This document shows, one piece after another, positions 43,151-53,324 of a DNA stretch of 64,000 nucleotides. A program made the position numbers and the translations under genes. How positions within the stretch are numbered: the first letter of the stretch is position 1; every line of letters starts with the position of its first letter. This stretch comes from the human T2T-CHM13v2.0 reference genome, Homo sapiens. The notes beneath the pieces were generated by a model, which ran no database searches, was not told where the DNA came from, and was given only the letters and a program-made list of their open reading frames with translations. The stretch lies in assembly GCF_009914755.1 (NCBI RefSeq), contig NC_060940.1; one strand, given 5' to 3'.

Positions 43151-43717
43151 ATCCGTCCCCCCTCAAACTCCTTCCACAGATATTTATAGATAAAAGCTTT
43201 GCCACCTCTGCTGAACACAGCTTCCAACATAGAAAACACACCATTCAGTGTCTTGCTTGTTTTACTGAATCTATCATGCTATACTACTGTGTGGTGAACA
43301 TGCAGGTTATACCATCTGCTATCACAGACGCTGATGAGATGAAAAATCTCATACACGTGGCCTGTTGCAGGTGCATACTGTATATGCAGGATAAATTCCC
43401 AGAAACGGCATTGCTAAGTATCTGCATTTGTGATTTGAGAGATATTGCCAATTTCCACTCCATAAGGTTAATACCAATTTGCACTTCCATCAGCTTTGGA
43501 TGAAAAATTAGTTTGCCCGCATCATTGCCAACACATTAAATTGGATTTATATCATTGGATTTTTACCAATCTGATAGGTGAAAAACAGTGACTCAATGTA
43601 GTCTTAATTTAAATTTGTTATGAAAAAATTTTAATTTATAATGTGTTTAAGGCCTATGTATTTTTCTATGACCGTCTTACTCATATTGTTTTGCTTATTT
43701 TATTTATTTATTTTTTT

Positions 43718-44104
43718 GTGAGCAACATGTCTGTTTATTTCACCTGGGTGCAGGCGGGCTGAGTCCGAAAAGAGAGTCAGCAAAGCGTGCTGGATTATCA
43801 TTAGTTCTTATAGGTTTTGGGATAGGCGGTGAAGTTAAGAGCAATGTTTTGCGGGCAGGGGTGGATCTCACACAGTACATTCTCAAGGGTGGGGAGAATT
43901 ACAAACAACCTGCTTAAGGGTGGGGGAGATTACAAAGTACATTGATCAGTTAGGTGGGGCAGGAACAAATCACAATGGTGGAATGTCATCAGTTAAGGCT
44001 ATTTTTACTTCTTTTGTGGATCTTCAGTTACTTCAGGCCATCTGGATGTATACGTGCAAGTCACAGGGGATGCGATGGCTTGGCTTGGGCTCAGAGGCCT
44101 GACA
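43718..44104 (-). mobile_element. 3' LTR (U3-R only, U5 absent), LTR7B/type II-like
   Basis: Starts TGTCAGGCCTCTGAGCCC on minus at 44104. Carries type II repeats (CCCACCCTTAAG/CCCACCCTTGAG). AATAAA at 43734-43739, then poly(A). PPT adjacent at 44105-44120. Confidence 0.85.
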
Positions 44105-47100
44105 TTCCTGCCGCCTTATATTAATAAGAAAAATCAAAATAGTGTTGAAGTCCTGGGGCGGCGAAAATTTTTGGGGGGTGGTATGGAGAGAGAGTGGGCG
44201 ATGTTTCTCAGGGTTGCTTCAAGCAGGATTAGGGGTGGCGTGGGAACCTAGAGTGGGAGAGATTAAGCTGAAGGAAGATTTTGTGGTAAGGGGTGATATT
44301 GTGGGGTTGTTAGAAGAAACATTTGTTGTGTAGAATTATTGGTGATGGCCTGGATATGATTTTGTATGAATTGAAAAACTAAATGGAATAAGAGAAGGAG
44401 AAAAACCGGTATAAAAGGTCTAAGAATTGGGAAGACCTAGGACATCTGATTAGAGAGTGCCTAAGGAGATTCAGTATAGTCCTGCCAGCAAAGATTATTT
44501 ATTTACTTCAAGAGTTAAGAGTGGCAGTTTGGGGATAGCACGAGGAGATATCAGCTGTGATGGCTTGGAGAAACTGTGTAAACCGGCAGTGTAAACAAGA
44601 GCAGGGCATGTATGAGTAGTTGAGAACGGAGAATAGGAGTATGACTAGACAGAAGATAGTAGGGATGACAAGTTTTTTTGGGGCACAGTCTAAGTTGGTC
44701 TGGTGTCTGGAATGAGACTGGGGCCTAATAAAAAGGAGCGTCTATACAGGAGCTTAAATGGGCTGTACCCCCTGTAGCATTCCGAAGACAGGCCTGAATT
44801 CTGAGAAGGGAAAGTGGTAAAAGTATTGTCCAGTCCTTTTTAAGTTGGTGGCTGAGCTTGGTGAGGTGTGTTTTTAAAAGACCTTTAGTCCATTCTACTT
44901 TTCTTGAAGACGGAGGACCGTAAGGGATATAAAGGTTTCACTGAATACTAAGAGCCTGAAAAACTGCTTGGCTGATTTGACTAATAAAGGCTCGTCTGTT
45001 ATCAGACTGTATAGAGGTGGGAAGGCTAAACTGAGGAATTATGTCTGACAGAAGGGAAGAAATGACTGCGGTGGCCTTCTCAGACCCTGTAGGAAAGGCC
45101 TCTACCTATCCAGTGAAAGTATCTACCTAGACTAAGAGGTATTTTAGTTATCTGACTCAGGGCATGTTGAGTAAAGCTAATTTGCCAGTCCTGGGTGGGG
45201 CAAATCCTCCAGCTTGATGTGTAGAGAAGGGAGGGGGCCTGAATAATCCCTGAGGAGTAGTAGAATAGCAGATGGAACACTGAGAAGTTATTTCCTTGAG
45301 GATAGATTTCCACAATGGAAAGGAAATGAGAGGTTCTAGGAGGCGGGCTAGTGGCTTGTACTATAGCATAGCCTGCCTTTGCTGGTGTGTGGTGATTAGG
45401 CCTGGTGGAACCTCCATCAATAAATCAAGCGTGATCAGGGTGAGGAACAGGAAAGAAGGAAATTTGGGGAAATGGGGTTAATGTCAGGTGGATCTGAGAG
45501 ATACAGTCATGGGGGTCAGGTGTGGTATCAGGAATAATGTGGGAGGCCGGATTGAAGTCTGGGCCAGGAACAACGGTAATTGTGGGAGACTCAACAAAGA
45601 GTGAGTATAGCTGAAGGAGCCGGGAAGCAGAAATTATATGCGTCAGGTATGAGGAAGAAAATAGATTTTGGAAGTTATGAGAAATGTAGAGAGTGAGTTG
45701 AGCATAGTTTGTGATTTTGAGGGCCTCTAAAAGTATTAATGCAGCGGCAGCCGCTGCACGCAGACATGAGGGCTAGGCTAAAACAGTAAGGTCAAGTTGT
45801 TTGGACAGAAAGGTTACAGGGTGTGGTCCTGGCTCTTGTGTAAGAATTCTGACCACGCTAACCATGCCTAGGGAGGAAAGGAATTGTTTTGTAGAAGGTG
45901 CTGGGGTTTGAGAGATCAGTCGGACAGGGAGATCACGTGTGTTTTTATGAGAATTATGCAGAGATAGGTAACAGATGAGGAAGAAATTTGGGCTTGATTG
46001 AAGTAATGGGGGCTGTCTGTGAAGCTTTGCAGCAGTACAGCCTAGGTAATTTGCTGAGCTTGATGGGGGTCAGGGTCAGTCCAAGTGAAAGTGAAGAGAG
46101 GCTGGGATTAACGGTGCAAAGGAATAGTAAAGAAAGCATGTTTGAGATGTAGAACAGAATAATGGGTTATAGAGGCAGGTATTGAGGATAGGAGAGTATA
46201 TGGGTTTGGCACCACGGGGTGGATAGGCAAAACAATTTGGTTGATAAGGCATAGATCCTGAACTAACTTGTAAGGCTTGTCTGGTTTTAGGACAGGTAAA
46301 ATGGGGGAATTGTAAGGAGTTTATAGGCTTTAAAAGGCCATGCTGTAGCAGACGAGTGATAACAGGCTTTAATCTTTTTAAAGCGTGCTGCGGGATGGGA
46401 TATTGGCGTTGAGTGGGGTAAGGGTGATTAGGTTTTAATGAGATGGTAAGGGGTGCATGATCGGTCGCCAAGGAGGGAGTAGAGGTATCTTGTGGGTTAA
46501 GGTGGGGGAATACAAGAGGAGACGCAAAGGAGGCTTTGGATTGGGAAGAAGGGTGGCAATGAGATATAGCTGTAGTCCAGGAATAGTCAGGGAAGCAGAT
46601 AATTTAGTTAGAGTATCTCGGCCTAATAAGGGAACTGGGCAGGTGGGGATAACTAAAAAGGAGTGCTTAAAAGAGTATTGCCTAAGTTGGCACCAGAGTT
46701 GGGGAGTTTTAAGAGGTTTAGAAGCCTGGCCGTCAATACCCACAACAGTTATGGAGGCAAGGGAAACAGGCCCTTGAAAAGAAGGTAATGTGGAGTGGGT
46801 AGCCTCCGTATTGATTAAGAAGGGAAAGGGCTTACCTTCCACTGTGAGAGTTACTCGAAGCTCAGCGTCTGTGATGGTCTACAGGGCTTTCGAGGCGATC
46901 GGGCAGTGTCAGTCTTCAGCCGCTAAGCCGAGAAGATCTGGGAAGGAGTCAGTCAGAGAGCCTTGGGCCAGAGTTCCAGGGGCTCTGGGAGTGGCTGCCA
47001 GGTGAGTTGAACAGTCCGATTTTCAGTGGGGTCCCACACAGATGGGACGCGGCTTAGGAGGAATCCCGGGCTGCCGGCATTCCTTGGCCCAGTGGCCAGA

Positions 47101-48797
47101 TTTCCAGCACATGTAGCAAGCTCCTGTGGGAGGAGGTTCTGGAGGAACGCCTGGCCGCTGCGGTTCAGGAGTTTGGAAGTTCTTGTGTGCTGGAGATGTG
47201 GCTGGGGTTTGTCTCACAGTGGAGGCAAGGAATTGCAACTTTTTTCTATTATTGTACACCTTGAAGGCGAGGTTAATTAAATCCTGTTGTGGGGTTTCAG
47301 GGCTGGAATTTAATTTTTGGAGTTTTATTTAATGTCGGGAGCACATTGGGTAATAAAATGTATTTTGAGAATAAGATGGCCTTTTGACCTTTTAGGGTCT
47401 AGGGCTGTAAAGCGTCTCAAGGTTGCAGCCAAACAAGACATGAACTGGGCTGGATTTTTATACTTGATGAAAAAGAGCCTAAACGCTATCTGATTTGGGA
47501 TAAAGAAAAAGGAGCATTCACCTTGACTATGCCTTTGGCTCCAGCCACCTTTTTAAGAGTGAATTGCTGGGCAGGTGGGGGAGGGCTAGTCACGCAACGA
47601 AACTGTAAGCCCCACCAGGTGTGAGGAGGGGAGGTGATAAAAAGATAGGGTGGAGGAGCGGAGGCTGAGGAAGAATTGGGACCTAGCTCAGCCTGGCGAG
47701 GAGGGGAGAGGTCAGATGGGTCTGTAGAAAAGGAAGATTAGAAAGACTCAGCGACACTTGGGGTTGGGACTGAGGGGACAGGCGGGAGGGAAAGAAGGAA
47801 GATTTGGTACGAGTTGCATTGGGCACAGAGACTAGGAAGGGACTGATGTGTAAAAGAATGCCTGGACGTCAGGCACCTCAGACCTTCTGCGTATTTTACA
47901 ACAAGAATTATTTAGATTTGCAGGATGGAAAAATTCAAAGTGCTATTTTCTGGCTATTTGGAACTACTGTCGAGTTTGTATTGGGATCAAGGGGCATTGC
48001 AGAAGAAAAGGCACTTAGGTTTTAGGTCAGGTGTGAGTTGAAGAGGTTTTAAGTTTTTGAGAACACAGGCTAAGGGAGAAGAAGGAGGAATGGAATGTGG
48101 AATCTTACGTATAGTGAAGGAGGCAAGCCCAGAGAAAAGAGTAGAGACACGGAGAAGGGGTGGAGGGTTCTTGCCCTCCAGAAAAGCAGAGAAGGGGTTG
48201 GGGCACGGAAATAAGGGATTGAGACACAGAGATAAGAGTTTGGGTGTGGAAATAAGCAATTAGGGGGTTCTTGCCCCCTAGGAAAGCGGGACTTGTCGCT
48301 AAGGGTGAAGGAGAAGGGGTTGAGGGGTACTTGCCCCTGCCCCAGGAAAGCAGGACTTGCCGCTAAGGTTGAAGGACCAAGGCAGGCGTCCCTGCATGGT
48401 CTGACACCCTTGAAGCGTGCCTGTATAATCAGAGAGGCGTCCCTGCAATGATTAAACACCAAGGGAAGGCTGCCTTCCCAGTCCGTGACTGGCACCGGAG
48501 TTTTGGGTCCACGGATAAAACATGTCTCCTTCGTCTCTCCCAGAAAATGAAAGGAATTGAAATTAAGAGAAGGGAGAGATTGAAGAGTGGAAAGAAGAAA
48601 GTGGTTGAGGGACAGTGAGAGAGGTTGGAGAAGAGTAAGAAGGGGCCGCTTACCTGATTTAAAATTGGTGATATTCCTTGGGCTGGTCGGTCTGAGGACC
48701 TGAGGTCGTAGGTGGATCTTTCTCATGGAGCAAAGAACAGGAGGACAGGGGATTGATCTCCCAAGGGAGGTCCCCCGATCCGAGTCATGGCACCAAA
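44105..48797 (-). pseudogene. HERV-H internal region B (deleted, env-less type) with defective gag-pro-pol
   Basis: PBS-His 48778-48795; splice donor CAG|GTAAGC 48648-48656; NC zinc knuckle CYMCWKSGHWAKEC (47023-47259); protease FLINTEATHS...LLGRD (46435-46842); frameshifted RT N-terminus (46076-46471). Confidence 0.9.
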
Positions 48798-49251
48798 TTT
48801 CATGCGCGTCCGTGTGAAGAGACCATCAAACAGGCTTTGTGTGAGCAACATGGCTGTTTATTTCACCTGGGTGCAGGCAGGCTGAGTCCGAAAAGAGAGT
48901 CAGTGAAGGGAGATAAGGGTGGGGCCGTTTTATAGGATTTGGGTAGGTAAAGGAAAATTACAGTCAAAGAGGGTTTGTTCTCTGGCGGGCAGGAGTGGGG
49001 GTCGCAAGGTGCTCAGTGGGGGTGTTTTTGAGCCAGGATGAGCCAGGAGAAGGACTTTCACAAGGTAATGTCATCAGTTAAGGCAAGGACCGGCCATTTA
49101 CACTTCTTTTGTGGTGGAATGTCATCAGTTAAGGGGGGGCAGGGCATATTCACTTCTTTTGTGATTCTTCAGTTACTTCAGGCCATCTGGGCGTATATAC
49201 GTGCAAGTCACAGGGGATGTGATGGCTTGGCTTGGGCTCAGAGGCCTGACA
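48798..49251 (-). mobile_element. Complete central LTR7 (type I)
   Basis: 454 bp TGTCAGG...CATGAAA; type I repeats; TATAAAA at 48927-48933 followed by CGGCCCCACCC; AATAAA in R. Confidence 0.9.
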
Positions 49252-52200
49252 GGTTTCACTGAATACTAAGAGCCTGAAAAACTGCTTGGCTGATTTGACT
49301 AATAAAGGCTGGTCTGTTATCAGACTGTATAGAGGGGGGAAGGCTAAACTGAGGAATTATGTCTGACAAAAGGGAAAAAATGACTGTGGTGGCCTTCTCA
49401 GACCCTGTAGGAAAGGTCTTTGCTTATTCAGTGAAAGTGTCTATTTAGACTAAAAGTTATTTTAGTTATCTGACTCAGGGCATGTTGAATAAAGCTAATT
49501 TGCCAGTCCTGGGCGGGGGCAAATCCCTGAGCTTGATGTGTAGGGAAGGGAGGAGGCCTGAATAATCCCTGAGGAGTAGTAGAACAGCAGATGGAACACC
49601 GAGAAGTTATTTCCTTGAGGATAGATTTCCACGATGGAAAGGAAATGAGAGGTTCTGAGAGGCGGGCTAGTGGCTTGTACTATAGCATAGCCTGCCTTTG
49701 CTGGTGTGTGGCGATTAGGCCTGGTGGAACTGCCATCAATAAATCAAGCGTGATCAGGGTGAGGAACAGGAAAGAAGGAAATTTGGGGAAATGGGGTTAA
49801 TGTCAGGTGGATCAGAGAGATACAGTCATGGGGGTCAGGTGTGGTATCAGGAATAATGTGGGGGGCCAGATTGAAGTCCGGGCCAGGAACAATGGTAATT
49901 GTGGGACTTAAAGAGTGAGTACAGCTGAAGGAGCCGGGGAGCAGAAAGTATATGCTTCAGGTATGAGGAAGAAAATAGATTTTGGAAGTTATGAGAAATG
50001 TAGAGAGTGAGTTGAGCATAGTTTGCGATTTTTAGGGCCTCTAAAAGTATTAATGCAGCGGCACCCGCTGTATGCAGACATGAGGGCTAGGCTAAAACAT
50101 TAAGGTCAAATTGTTTGGACAGAAAGGCTACAGGGTGCGGTCCTGGCTCTTGTATAAGAATTCTGACCACACTAACCATACCTAGGAAGAAAAGGAGTTG
50201 TTTTGTAAGGGATTGAGGTTTGGGGGATTAATCGGACACGAGCAGCAGGGGGAGCACCTGTGTTTTTATGAAGAATTATGCTGAGATAGGTAACAGATGA
50301 GGATGAAATTTGGGCTTGATTGAAGTAATGGGGGCTGTCTGTGACGCCTTGCAGCAGTACAGCCCAGGTAATTTGCTGAGCCTAATGGGTGTCAGGGTCA
50401 GTCCAAGTGAAAGCGAAGAGAGGCTGGGATGATGGGAGCAAAGGAATAGTAAAGAAAGCATGCTTGAGATCCAGAACATAATAATGGATTGTGGAGGGAG
50501 GTATGGAGGATAGGAGAGTATATGGGTTTGACACCATAGGGTGGATAGGCAAAACAATTTGGTTGATAAGGCACAGATCCTGAACTAACTTGTAAGGCTT
50601 GTCTGGTTTTAGGACAGGCAAAATGGGGGAATTGTAAGGAGAGTTTATAGGCTTTAAAAGGCCATGCTGTAGCAGGCGAGTGATAACAGGCTTTAATCCT
50701 TTCAAAGCATGCTGTGGGATGGGATATTGGCATTGAACAGGGTAAGGGTGATAAGGTTTTAATGAGATGGTAAGGGGTGCATGATCAGTCGCCAAGGAGG
50801 GAGTAGAGGTATCTTATACTTGTGGGTTAAGGTGGGGGAATACAAGAGGAGGATGCAAAGGAGGCTTTGGATTGGGAAGAAGGGTGGCAATGAGATGTAG
50901 CTGTAGTCCAGGAATAGTCAGGGAAGCAGATAATTTAGTTAAAGTGTCTCGGCCTAATAAGGGAACTGGGCAGGTGGGGATAACTAAAAGGAGTGCTTAA
51001 AAGAGTATCATCTAAGTTGGCACCAGAGTTGGGGAGTTCTAAGAGGTTTAGAAGCCTGGCCGTCAATACTCACAACAGTTATGGAGGCAAGGGAAACAGG
51101 CCCTTGAAAAGAAGGTAATGTGGAGTGGGTAGCCTCCGTATTGATTAAGGCGACGGACTTACCTTCCACTGTGAGAGTTACTCGAAGCTCGGCGTCTGTG
51201 ATGGTCTACGGGGCTTTCGAGGTGATCAGGCAGCGTCAGTCTTCAGCCGCTAAGCCGAGAAGGAGTCAGTCAGAGAGCCTTGGGCCAGAGTTCCAGGGGC
51301 TCTGGGAGTGGCTGCCAGGTGAGTTGAACAGTCCGATTTTCAGTGGGGTCCCACACAGATGGGACGCGGCTTAGGAGGAATCCCGGGCTGCCGGCATTCC
51401 TTGGCCCAGTGGCCAGATTTCCGGCACGTGTAGCAAGCTCCTGGGGAAGGAGGTTCTGGAGGAATACCTGGCTGCTGTGGTTCAGGCATTTGGAAGTTCT
51501 TGTGTGCTGGAGATGTGGCTGGGGTTTGTCTCACAGTGGAGGCAAGGAATTGCAACTTTTTTTCTGTTACTGTACACCTTGAAGGTGAGGTTAATTAAAT
51601 CCTGTTGTGGGGTTTGAGGGCCAGATTCCAATTTTTGGAATTTTATTTAATGTCGGGAGCACATTGGGTAATAAAATGTATTTTGAGAATAAGATGGCCT
51701 TTTGACCTTTTAGGGTCTAGGGCTGTAAAGCGTCTCAAGGTTGCAGCCAAACAAGTCATGAACTGGGCTGGATTTTTATATTTGATGAAAAAGAGCCTAA
51801 ACGCTATCTGATTTGGGATAAAGAAAAAGGAGCATTCACCTTGACTATGCCTTTAGCTTCAGCCACCTTTTTAAGAATAAATTGCTGGACAGGTGGGGAA
51901 GGGCTAGTCACTGAACGAAACTATAAGCCAGACAGGGTGTGAGGAGGGGAGGTGATAAAAGGATTATAGGGTGGAGGAGGGGAGGCTGAGGAAGAATTGG
52001 GACCTAGCTTGGCCTGGAGAGGAGGGGAGAGGTCAGATGGGTCTGTAGAAAAGGAAGATTAGAAAGACTCAGTGACGCTTGGGGTTGGGACTGAGGGGAC
52101 AGGCGGGAGGGAAAGAAGGAAGATTTGGTACGAGTTGCATTGGGCACAGAGACTAGGAAGGGACTGATGTGTAAAAGAATGCCTGGACATCAGGCACCTC

Positions 52201-53201
52201 AGACCATTTGTCTATTTTACAGCAAGAATTATTTAGATTTTGCAGGATGGAAAAATTCAAAGTGCCATTTTTTGGCTATTTGGAACTACTGTTGAGTTTG
52301 TATTGGGGTCAAGCAGCATTGCAGAAGAAAATAAGGCGTTTAGGTTTTAGGTCAGGTGTGAGTTGAAGAGGTTTTAAGTTCGTGAGAAGTCAGGCTAAGG
52401 GAGAAGGAGGAATGGATGGTGGAAGGTTGCCCATAGTGAAGGAGGCAAACCCAGAGAAAAGAGAGCATAGAGATATGGAGGGAAGGGGTTCGGGGGTTCT
52501 TACCCTCCAGAAAAGTGGGAAGGGGGGTCGGGGCATGGAAATAAGGGATTGGGGCACAGAAATAAGAGGTTGGGGTGCGGAAATAAGGGATTGGGGGTTC
52601 TTGCCCCCTAGAAAAGCGGGACTTGCCGCTAAGGGCGAAGGAGAAGGGGTTGAGGGGTACTTGCCCCTTCCCCAGAAAAGCAGAGAAGGGGTAGAGAGGG
52701 AGAGAAGGAGTTGGGGAACTTGCCCCTCCCCCAGAAAAGCGGGACTTGCTGCTAAGGGTGAAGGACCAAGGCAGGCATCCCTGCGTGGTCTGACACCTTT
52801 GAAACGTGGGTGAATAATCAGAGAGGTGTCCCTGCAATGATTAAACACCAAGGGAAGGCTGCCTTCCCAGTCCGTGACAGGCGCTGGAGTTTTGGGTCCA
52901 CCGATAAAACGTGTCTGCTTTGTCTCTCCCAGAAAATGAAAGGAATTGAAATTAAGAGAAGGGAGAGATTGAAGTGTGACGCCAAGATTGAAAGGAGAAA
53001 GAGGTTGAGGGATAGTGAGGGAGATTGGAAAAGAGAGTAAAAAGTGGCCACTTACCGGATTTGAAATTGGTGAGATGTTTCTTGGGCTTGTCTGTCTAAG
53101 GACCTGAGGTGGTAGGTGGATCTTTCTCACAGAGCAAAGAGCAGGAGGACAGGGGATTGATCTCCCAAGGGAGGTCCCCCGATCCGAGTCACGGCACCGA
53201 A
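49252..53201 (-). pseudogene. HERV-H internal region A, 3'-truncated at the central LTR, with defective gag-pro-pol
   Basis: PBS-His 53182-53199 (TGG>CGG); donor CCG|GTAAGT 53050-53058; NC CYTCRKSGHWAKEC (51340-51555); RT N-terminus SPYNSPILPVLKP...LVQDL...LDLKHAFFTIPL (50382-50795). Confidence 0.9.
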
Positions 53202-53309
53202 TTTCATGCGCGTCCATGAGAAGAGACCACCACACAGGCTTTGTGTGACCAACATGGCTGTTTATTTCACCTGGGTGCAGGTGGGCTGAGTCCAAAAAGA
53301 GAGTCAGCC
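53202..53309 (-). mobile_element. 5' LTR remnant (R-U5 only, U3 absent)
   Basis: Minus strand reads G-GCTGACTCTCTTTTTGGACTCAGCCC...CATGAAA, directly inside the TSD. Confidence 0.9.
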
Positions 53310-53324
53310 TGTTTTGCTTATTTT

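What the first reader, a model, noticed from the sequence alone, without database searches (positions are those of the whole stretch)
43718..49256. Discordant LTR subtypes and a PPT-less junction: a nested HERV-H-in-HERV-H collapsed by recombination
Seen: the central LTR (48798-49251) is type I LTR7, while the terminal LTR (43718-44104) has a different, type II/LTR7B-like U3. The central LTR's TG start joins directly to internal sequence (49252 corresponds to 44934 in the other unit), so unit A lacks the ~830 bp 3' segment and the PPT. Established: a provirus has identical LTRs at integration, and true tandem proviruses keep the PPT before the shared LTR. Inference: an LTR7 provirus (B) integrated in the same orientation into pol of an LTR7B element (A). 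Recombination between their 3' internal segments then removed B's 3' LTR. This happened either here after retroposition, giving a promoterless retrocopy a new promoter, or at a source locus whose read-through RNA was retroposed.
Basis: partly seen in the sequence, partly recalled or inferred. Interest (0 to 1): 0.8.

Follow-up and report, generated by a model that had tools for sequence, protein, structure and literature searches.

The report
Retrocopied HERV-H re-armed by nested provirus
An old, promoterless copy of a human endogenous retrovirus in an IL34 intron was hit by a younger retrovirus of the same family, and recombination then fused the two into one element with mismatched ends whose middle repeat is an active stem-cell promoter.

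Summary

- **Boundaries.** The minus-strand block 43687-53324 has LINE-1 retrocopy hallmarks. It starts in R, ends at the R poly(A) site with an A-rich tail, and is flanked by an exact 15-nt target-site duplication.
- **Junction.** The central LTR (48798-49251) abuts internal sequence at its first base, with no polypurine tract.
- **LTR types.** Published annotation of this locus calls the central LTR LTR7up1 and the terminal U3-R (43718-44104) LTR7B.
- **Two lineages.** The units are 93% identical and have disjoint sets of nearest genomic relatives.
- **Crossover.** All 20 nearest relatives of the downstream unit carry central-type LTRs. That unit switches lineage between 44770 and 44570: 36/3, then 0/10 diagnostic sites, with 0 of 20000 shuffles reaching the statistic. 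Trees are incongruent, 97/97 against 100/98.
- **Host.** The upstream unit groups with LTR7B-flanked copies, 33 of 38 sites.
- **Source locus.** No second junction exists in T2T-CHM13.

Whether the events happened here or at a lost source locus needs ape orthologues. The mechanisms are known, and the locus is already published as an IL34 enhancer.

The parts
53310..53324 (-). 5' copy of the 15-nt target-site duplication AAAATAAGCAAAACA, preceded by TTTT (a TT|AAAA-type LINE-1 nick site)
   Evidence: exactly 2 copies in the window and 0 in 100 shuffles.
53202..53309 (-). 5' end of the retrocopy. One extra G (53309) is followed by R-U5 only, starting GCTGACTCTC and ending ATGAAA. There is no U3, so this end is promoterless.
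   Evidence: R-U5 is 98 of 106 identical to the central LTR's R-U5. Carter's remasking labels this stub LTR7u2.
49252..53201 (-). Host element, 5' internal part (primer-binding site 53199-53182, leader, gag, protease region). It is cut at ...AGTGAAACC, the point that corresponds to 44934.
   Evidence: 33 of 38 diagnostic sites show the LTR7B-panel state. It pairs with the C19 LTR7B provirus in the tree (82/81).
48798..49251 (-). Complete central LTR (U3-R-U5) of LTR7up1 type. It is the 5' LTR of the inserted provirus, and its first base TG joins host internal DNA with no polypurine tract.
   Evidence: It is 94-97% identical to the LTRs of most nearest relatives. Carter supplementary file 1 gives RNA=1, chimeric=1, NANOG/KLF4/SOX2/FOXA1/TCF4=1 and H3K4me3/H3K27ac=1. 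RefSeq enhancer features 48669-49216 and 49217-49764 come from the hub table.
44771..48797 (-). Internal region of the inserted LTR7up1-lineage provirus: primer-binding site 48795-48778, gag remnants, protease 46438-46878.
   Evidence: 36 of 39 diagnostic sites show the LTR7up-panel state. It lies inside the LTR7up-flanked clade (97/97).
44570..44770 (-). Interval that contains the recombination crossover, between the last insert-type site (44770) and the first host-type site (44570).
   Evidence: MaxChi 34.8, reached by 0 of 20000 shuffles. Supported.
44105..44569 (-). Host-derived 3' internal end, including the polypurine tract (44105-44119).
   Evidence: 10 of 10 diagnostic sites show the LTR7B-panel state. 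It forms a clade with 5 LTR7B-flanked copies (100/98).
43718..44104 (-). Terminal LTR7B-type U3-R, cut at the R poly(A) site with no U5.
   Evidence: It is 96-97% identical over 387 nt to the LTRs of the C6:128.04M and C19:49.88M proviruses.
43702..43717 (-). Degenerate A-rich tail: A7 T A3 T A3 T.
43687..43701 (-). 3' copy of the 15-nt target-site duplication.

Best explanation
Three events built this locus.

(1) A LINE-1 machine reverse-transcribed a full-length, capped and polyadenylated RNA of an LTR7B-type HERV-H into an IL34 intron. The result was a ~5.3-kb promoterless retrocopy: R-U5, internal region, U3-R, A-tail, with a 15-nt target-site duplication.

(2) A younger LTR7up1 provirus integrated by its own integrase, in the same orientation, 829 bp upstream of the retrocopy's 3' LTR.

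(3) That insertion created a direct repeat. The insert's last 829 bp plus its 3' LTR lay next to the host's last 829 bp plus the LTR7B. Homologous recombination between the two 829-bp segments, with a crossover between 44770 and 44570, deleted about 1.28 kb including the insert's 3' LTR.

The product looks like a tandem provirus, but it has a PPT-less central LTR and mismatched LTRs. The central LTR7up1 now supplies the only complete promoter. Published data show it is transcribed and bound by pluripotency factors in human embryonic stem cells.

What is shown: the retrocopy hallmarks, the integrase-type junction, the two lineages, the crossover and the LTR types. What is inferred: the order of events (retroposition first) and the identity of the 3' tail with the host's own end.

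Confidence in the core, nested insertion plus homologous collapse, is about 0.85. The figure of 0.55 given below also includes the 'retroposition first, at this locus' order.
For: **Retrocopy.** There is an exact 15-nt duplication at both ends (2 matches, 0 expected). The 5' end starts at R next to non-LTR flank with one extra G. The 3' end stops at GCTCAC followed by an A-rich tail.

**Junction.** Host sequence runs to ...GTGAAACC and then TGTCAGG follows. 18 of 20 two-LTR panel proviruses have exact 5-bp duplications, and all start TGTCAG, so a precise TG join is what this family's integrase produces.

**Two lineages.** The top relatives of the two units are disjoint. 20 of 20 nearest relatives of the downstream unit carry central-type U3, and 0 of 20 carry terminal-type U3.

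**Crossover.**
- In 200-nt windows the downstream unit behaves as a member of the LTR7up-flanked group down to ~44600 and as a member of the LTR7B-flanked group from there on. Within-group identity stays at 0.957-0.965, so the region is not locally hypervariable.
- Of 49 diagnostic sites, 36 are insert-type and 3 host-type to the left of the break; 0 are insert-type and 10 host-type to the right. 0 of 20000 shuffles reach the statistic.
- The left-segment tree puts the unit inside the LTR7up-flanked clade (97/97). The right-segment tree puts it with 5 LTR7B-flanked copies (100/98).

**One host.**
- The upstream unit shows 33 of 38 LTR7B-panel states at sites outside the region used to choose that panel.
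- The C19 provirus, with LTR7B-type LTRs at both ends, is the best relative both of the upstream unit (92-97% per window) and of 44600-43718 (95-97.7%).
- The piece 43718-44530 is contiguous in the same way at 36 of 39 other scored loci.

**Order of events.**
- No second junction exists in T2T-CHM13.
- Simple HERV-H retrocopies are recurrent: 19 places have the R end followed by A12 or more, against 0 for the control.

**Activity.** Carter supplementary file 1 row for this locus, and passages of bioRxiv 10.1101/318329.
Against: - Only 1 of the 10 relatives of the upstream unit with the highest bit scores has LTR7B-type LTRs; the others carry various LTR7-like types.
- Carter's remasking calls the 107-nt 5' R-U5 stub LTR7u2, not LTR7B.
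- The 'LTR7B-panel state' may mean only 'not LTR7up lineage'.
- The LTR7up-flanked panel was chosen by likeness to the downstream unit, and the LTR7B-flanked panel by likeness to 43718-44530. The 10 right-hand sites therefore lean towards the result.
- 3 left-hand sites and 5 upstream-unit sites show the 'wrong' state.
- 2 of 8 LTR7B-flanked copies fall with the other group in the right-segment tree, and that tree's bootstrap had not settled.
- Tests confined to the 929-bp segment were weak. Pairwise triplets gave 20 of 160 pairs at p<=0.01 with a median p of 0.063. Group sites gave 13 sites and p=0.07.
- The insert's 5-bp target duplication cannot be seen, because its 3' side was deleted.
- Nothing here dates retroposition relative to the insertion. 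Gammaretrovirus-like integration may prefer active proviruses over a silent retrocopy, which would favour the source-locus order.
Confidence: 0.55

Rival explanations
1. Source-locus order. The nested insertion and the recombination happened in an LTR7B provirus elsewhere. A 9.6-kb RNA started at that provirus's 5' LTR, read through the poly(A) signal of the central LTR7up1 and ended in the LTR7B R. LINE-1 then copied this RNA here.
For: The structure is colinear with such an RNA, from R start to R end. Proviruses far outnumber retrocopies as integration targets: Carter supplementary file 2 counts 735 full-length elements, against 19 A12-tailed R ends. An active provirus is a likelier integration target than a silent retrocopy; this last point is general knowledge and was not tested.
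Against: No second junction was found. Only this locus itself spans the 101-nt query among the 40 scored of 2107 candidates. The 24-mer with up to 3 mismatches hits only this locus and one chance site. No relative of either unit exceeds 93-95% identity. The model also needs read-through of a canonical AATAAA signal and full-length copying of 9.6 kb.
Confidence: 0.27
2. The 3' tail (44570-43718) comes not from the host but from an unrelated LTR7B element, by ectopic gene conversion or recombination into the insert's 3' end.
For: 36 of 39 other scored loci carry an equally similar 3' end plus LTR7B, at 87-95%. Only 1 of 10 top-scoring relatives of the upstream unit is LTR7B-flanked.
Against: The terminal U3-R stops at the poly(A) site and abuts the A-tail and the target-site duplication, so it is the retrocopied RNA's own end. 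The host's own 829 bp and LTR would then also have to be deleted separately. The C19 provirus matches both host pieces best.
Confidence: 0.06
3. Chimeric retrocopy made by LINE-1 reverse-transcriptase template switching. Synthesis began on an LTR7B-type RNA and jumped at a homologous position to a second RNA.
For: The join lies in a stretch where the groups are 94-97% alike. Chimeric LINE-1 retrocopies exist; this is recalled and comes from no call.
Against: The second RNA would itself have to carry the host|LTR7up1 integration junction and start at R, so a nested locus is needed anyway. Homology-guided internal switching is not the usual form of such chimeras; this too is recalled.
Confidence: 0.05
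4. Tandem duplication of one provirus by unequal LTR-LTR crossover followed by a deletion, or an assembly artefact.
For: Two head-to-tail units share one LTR, with a spacing of ~4.32-4.40 kb.
Against: The units are 93.25% identical and belong to different clades. Each has many closer relatives elsewhere. The LTRs are of different subfamilies. The 829-bp gap ends exactly at the LTR's first base. The same structure is present in hg38.
Confidence: 0.02

Closest known systems
HERV-W processed pseudogenes made by LINE-1 (Grandi & Tramontano 2017, PMC5537654, abstract and passages seen; Pavlicek et al. 2002, recalled, not held)
   Same: R-U5...U3-R colinear with the viral RNA, A-tail, long target-site duplication, TT|AAAA-type site, and no promoter at the 5' end.
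   Different: The family is HERV-H, not HERV-W. The retrocopy later received a nested provirus that supplies a complete LTR.
Tandem proviruses sharing a central LTR, such as the HERV-K(HML-2) tandem at 7p22 (recalled, from no call)
   Same: An LTR-internal-LTR-internal-LTR layout.
   Different: In true tandems the units are near-identical, the central LTR is preceded by the polypurine tract, and all LTRs are of one type. All three features fail here.
Solo-LTR formation and other homologous-recombination deletions within HERVs (Thomas et al. 2018, PMC6298018, passages seen)
   Same: An intrachromosomal crossover between direct repeats of a provirus removes what lies between them.
   Different: The repeats are the 829-bp 3' internal segments of two different elements, not the two LTRs of one. 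The product is a hybrid element, not a solo LTR.
Mosaic LTR7 subfamilies formed by inter-element recombination (Carter et al. 2022, PMC8912925, passages and supplementary files 1, 2, 7 seen)
   Same: Recombination between LTR7 and LTR7B lineages creates new combinations.
   Different: Those events are attributed mainly to template switching and gave rise to new replicating subfamilies with two identical LTRs. This is a single-locus DNA-level event that leaves two different LTRs.

Membership tests
LINE-1-mediated processed pseudogene (retrocopy) | Colinear with the mature RNA: starts at the transcription start in R, ends at the R poly(A) site, with no 5' U3 and no 3' U5 | tested here: met
   GCTGACTCTC... 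sits next to non-LTR flank, and the 3' end is GCTCAC followed by A-rich sequence.
LINE-1-mediated processed pseudogene (retrocopy) | Poly(A) tail followed by a 7-20-nt target-site duplication at a TT|AAAA-like site | tested here: met
   a 16-nt degenerate tail and an exact 15-nt duplication (2 copies, 0 in shuffles), preceded by TTTT.
Integrase-made HERV-H provirus (the nested insert) | The LTR starts TG exactly at the join with target DNA, and the primer-binding site follows U5 | tested here: met
Integrase-made HERV-H provirus (the nested insert) | A 5-bp target duplication on both sides (18 of 20 panel proviruses) | not testable with these tools
   The 3' side of the insert is deleted. It would be visible only in an uncollapsed orthologous allele.
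Integrase-made HERV-H provirus (the nested insert) | Two LTRs of the same type | tested here: not met
   5' LTR7up1 against 3' LTR7B. The crossover at 44570-44770 explains this.
LTR7up1 (central LTR) and LTR7B (terminal LTR) | Assignment by subfamily-specific U3 blocks | tested here: met
   One search gives the published remasking of this very locus. One search is the by-eye match to the published aligned subfamily sequences. Searches give 94-97% identity to genomic LTRs of each type.
Tandem provirus by unequal LTR crossover | Near-identical units, a polypurine tract before the shared LTR, and one LTR type | tested here: not met
Inter-element recombinant | Phylogenetic incongruence on the two sides of a breakpoint | tested here: met
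   The caveat of panel selection is stated in the Against line.

The most novel reading that the evidence does not exclude
A dead, LINE-1-made HERV-H pseudogene served as the landing pad for a young LTR7up1 provirus and was 're-armed' by it. The resulting hybrid is the HERVH element reported as the pluripotent-cell enhancer and promoter behind human-specific IL34 expression. An IL34 alternative first exon (51181-51318, + strand) arises antisense in the old retrocopy, divergent from the new LTR. Beyond this locus, LINE-1 retrocopies of HERV-H would be a recurrent class, with at least 19 further loci carrying long A-tails. That runs against the printed statement that HERV-W is the only HERV group mobilised by LINE-1.
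Probability: 0.5. Interest if true: 0.6.

Novelty: new member of a known kind. Interest (0 to 1): 0.5.

Why it matters
This locus is used in the literature as an expressed '7up1' HERVH (Carter et al. 2022, supplementary file 1). It is also cited as a 'full-length LTR7-HERVH-LTR7' enhancer of IL34 in human pluripotent cells (bioRxiv 10.1101/318329).

The dissection shows it is neither a full-length provirus nor three truncated ones. It is a three-step composite, and only the middle LTR is a complete promoter.

This affects three things:
- dating, because LTR-LTR divergence is meaningless here;
- subfamily counts, because one locus is scored as three 'truncated' elements;
- any study that links HERVH internal sequence to LTR type.

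The locus also gives a clean natural example of homologous collapse between a nested element and its host. It points to an under-counted class of LINE-1-made HERV-H copies.

Tried and rejected
- **Crossover tests on the 929-bp segment alone.** Pairwise triplet MaxChi gave 20 of 160 pairs at p<=0.01. Group sites gave 13 sites and p=0.07. Both were underpowered, and longer flanks were needed.
- **Pfam scan of minus-strand open frames.** Protease scored E=2e-11. The zinc knuckle and Gag_p30 fell below their cut-offs. Nothing was found between 44105 and 46400, even at E<=5. 'Into pol' therefore stays unverified.
- **Second junction.** None was found. C1:77298438 is a chance 24-mer.
- **Literature.** Six phrase variants of 'HERV-H processed pseudogene(s)' returned 0 papers. 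'HERVH + IL34 + LTR7' returned 1 paper. A search on nested or tandem provirus terms returned 104 papers, and none of the 12 listed was on point by title. Passages of Thomas 2018 and Gemmell 2016 held nothing relevant. Pavlicek 2002 is not held.
- **Earlier-findings store.** It was closed.
- **Panel rows dropped.** 3 of the 11 loci fetched (L051, L052, L057) could not be anchored and were left out. L059 was left out of the LTR7B panel because its LTRs are mosaic. The second half of the intended relatives panel could not be fetched. As a result, the relatives of the upstream unit are represented only by LTR and 3' pieces of its top 10, plus two whole loci.
Full report
**Anatomy.** The element lies on the minus strand.

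Read 5' to 3', from high to low coordinates, the window shows these parts:
- non-repeat flank ending TTTT;
- a 15-nt string AAAATAAGCAAAACA (53324-53310);
- one G (53309);
- R-U5 of a HERV-H LTR starting GCTGACTCTC (53308-53202);
- a primer-binding site and internal sequence down to ...AGTGAAACC (49252);
- a complete LTR from TGTCAGG to ATGAAA (49251-48798);
- a second primer-binding site and a second internal region (48797-44105), ending in a purine-rich tract;
- an LTR that begins TGTCAGG (44104) and stops at GCTCAC (43718);
- a 16-nt A-rich tail;
- the same 15-nt string again (43701-43687).

The 15-mer occurs exactly twice in the 64-kb window and in none of 100 shuffles. The whole 9.6-kb block therefore has the hallmarks of one LINE-1-mediated retrocopy of an RNA that ran from R to R. 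The same span is present in hg38, so it is not an assembly artefact.

**The observation.**
- A self-comparison aligns 44933-48903 with 49251-53307. The upstream unit thus stops at the position equal to 44934 and lacks the 829 bp that precede the 3' LTR in the downstream unit.
- The two strings are identical up to GTGAAACC. One then continues TTTATATCCC and the other TGTCAGG.
- 20 of 20 two-LTR proviruses fetched as relatives have a conserved purine-rich tract before the 3' LTR. The terminal LTR here has it; the central LTR does not.
- The two LTRs align only at their first ~130 nt (85.7%) and in R (95.6%).
- Carter et al. 2022 (PMC8912925) list this locus. The central LTR is '7up1' and the terminal one 'LTR7B'. 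The 5' stub plus upstream unit is 'LTR7u2 ... truncated' (supplementary files 1 and 2).
- By eye, both LTRs follow the corresponding rows of that paper's aligned subfamily sequences (supplementary file 7).
- The same paper equates LTR7 with Type I and LTR7B with Type II. My own recalled labels were reversed, and I dropped them.

**Not a duplication.**
- The shared 3.8 kb of the two units is 93.25% identical, with K2P 0.071 and 26 gap openings.
- I searched the T2T genome with each internal region. For the downstream unit, 30 of 1483 candidates were scored; for the upstream unit, 37 of 1307.
- The two sets of best loci are disjoint.
- For the downstream unit, 28 rows from other loci rank above the upstream unit (90%).
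- The downstream unit is not among those scored for the upstream unit.

**Which LTR belongs to which unit.**
- I fetched the 20 best relatives of the downstream unit with their flanks. All 20 carry central-type U3 at every LTR present, and none carries terminal-type U3.
- The central LTR is therefore the natural 5' LTR of the downstream unit, and the terminal LTR is the odd one.
- The last 426 bp of internal sequence plus the terminal LTR, used as one query, match 36 of 39 other scored loci contiguously. 24 of these match at 92-95%. That 3' end is thus a standard LTR7B-type end.

**The crossover.**
- In 300-, 200- and 100-nt windows, the downstream unit is 96-99% identical to its 20 relatives from ~46600 to ~44600. 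It then drops to ~91%.
- Eight LTR7B-flanked copies were used for comparison. Seven were chosen from the top, and the eighth was the C19 provirus, which appears in both.
- Upstream of ~44600, query-to-LTR7up-panel identity equals within-panel identity.
- Downstream of ~44600, it equals between-panel identity, and query-to-LTR7B-panel identity equals within-LTR7B-panel identity.
- Within-panel identity stays at 0.957-0.965 throughout, so the drop is not local hypervariability.
- I defined diagnostic sites as substitution sites where at least 80% of one panel and at least 75% of the other differ. There are 49 of them.
- The query shows 36 insert-type and 3 host-type states down to 44770. It shows 0 and 10 from 44570 on. 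MaxChi is 34.8, reached by 0 of 20000 shuffles.
- A maximum-likelihood tree of 46600-44770 places the unit inside the LTR7up-flanked clade (97/97).
- A tree of 44570-44105 places it with five LTR7B-flanked copies (100/98). That tree's bootstrap had not fully settled.
- Tests restricted to the 929-bp segment were too weak to decide.

**The host.**
- At the 38 diagnostic sites covered by the upstream unit, it shows 33 LTR7B-panel states. These sites lie outside the stretch used to pick that panel.
- In the left-segment tree it pairs with the C19 provirus (82/81) among LTR7B-flanked copies.
- That provirus has LTR7B-type LTRs at both ends (96.4% and 97.4%). It is the closest copy both to the upstream unit and to 44600-43718.

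Against this:
- only 1 of the 10 highest-scoring relatives of the upstream unit is LTR7B-flanked;
- the 5' stub is labelled LTR7u2 in print;
- the panel state may mark only 'not LTR7up'.

I put 0.75 on the host being a single LTR7B-type element.

**Mechanism.**
- 18 of 20 panel proviruses have exact 5-bp target duplications and start with TGTCAG. A join at the first LTR base is therefore the integrase signature.
- After insertion, the insert's last 829 bp plus its LTR and the host's last 829 bp plus its LTR formed a direct repeat.
- A crossover 164-364 bp into that repeat removes ~1.28 kb and leaves exactly what is seen.
- Retroviral template switching cannot give two different LTRs, because U3 of both LTRs is copied from one 3' end. 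This is established retrovirology.

**Order of events.**
- No second junction exists in T2T-CHM13. In the 101-nt query only this locus itself spans it. The 24-mer with up to 3 mismatches hits this locus and one site whose flanks are unrelated.
- Simple HERV-H retrocopies recur. 19 places have the R end followed by at least 12 A, against 0 for the reversed control. Two of them, already in hand, have A18 and A21 tails. Of these, L042's partner fragment L041 carries only R-U5 at its 5' end, and a third locus, L011, starts at R next to non-LTR flank.
- I therefore favour retroposition first and insertion later, at about 2:1. Only ape orthologues can settle it.

**Function.**
- Carter's table marks the locus as transcribed in embryonic stem cells and as chimeric. 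It is bound by NANOG, KLF4, SOX2, FOXA1 and TCF4, and carries H3K4me3 and H3K27ac.
- RefSeq enhancer features cover the central LTR (hub table).
- A preprint names this HERVH a functional enhancer of IL34 in pluripotent cells (I saw passages only, and figures are not held).
- Carter dates most LTR7B insertions to 10-20 mya and LTR7up1 to about 10-14 mya by orthology. This fits an older host and a younger insert.

**Novelty.** The processes are all textbook, and the locus is already annotated and used. The three-step history was not found in my searches, which cover only the held library. Supplements of bioRxiv preprints are closed, and the figure showing primate conservation of this locus could not be seen.

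Noticed in passing
G000 genome-wide. Examples in hand: L042 (C2:199.736M), L051 (C8:116.946M), L011 (C4:97.40M).: 19 distinct places have the HERV-H R end GTTGCTCACA followed by at least 12 A, against 0 for the reversed control. L042 and L051 show A18 and A21 tails. L042's partner L041 has only R-U5 at the 5' end, and L011 starts at R next to non-LTR flank. LINE-1 retrocopies of HERV-H therefore look recurrent. A review abstract (PMC5537654) calls HERV-W the sole HERV group mobilised by LINE-1.
   Followed up: partly
window 51181-51318 (+): An exon of alternative IL34 transcripts lies antisense inside the upstream (host) HERV-H unit. No AG precedes it and GTGAGT follows it, so it is a first exon. 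It lies ~1.9 kb from the central LTR7up1 and is divergent to it.
   Followed up: partly
L059 (G000:C7:34439700-34445500): This provirus has mosaic LTRs at both ends. The first 123 nt of the middle of U3 are LTR7B-like (94-97%), and the following part is LTR7-like (88-91%). That is the kind of hybrid described for LTR7Y.
   Followed up: no
window ~48500-47900 and ~52700-52500; G000:C4:95602699-95603063: Short stretches of the leader and 5' gag region match relatives many times in steps of ~42 nt. This is a variable tandem repeat, and it explains the low-identity windows there.
   Followed up: no
Carter et al. 2022, supplementary file 2: 86 LTR7up1 entries are scored 'truncated', and many are 5.3-5.7 kb with one LTR. 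Some may be elements whose two LTRs were given different names, as at this locus, or retrocopies. They need not be true truncations.
   Followed up: no
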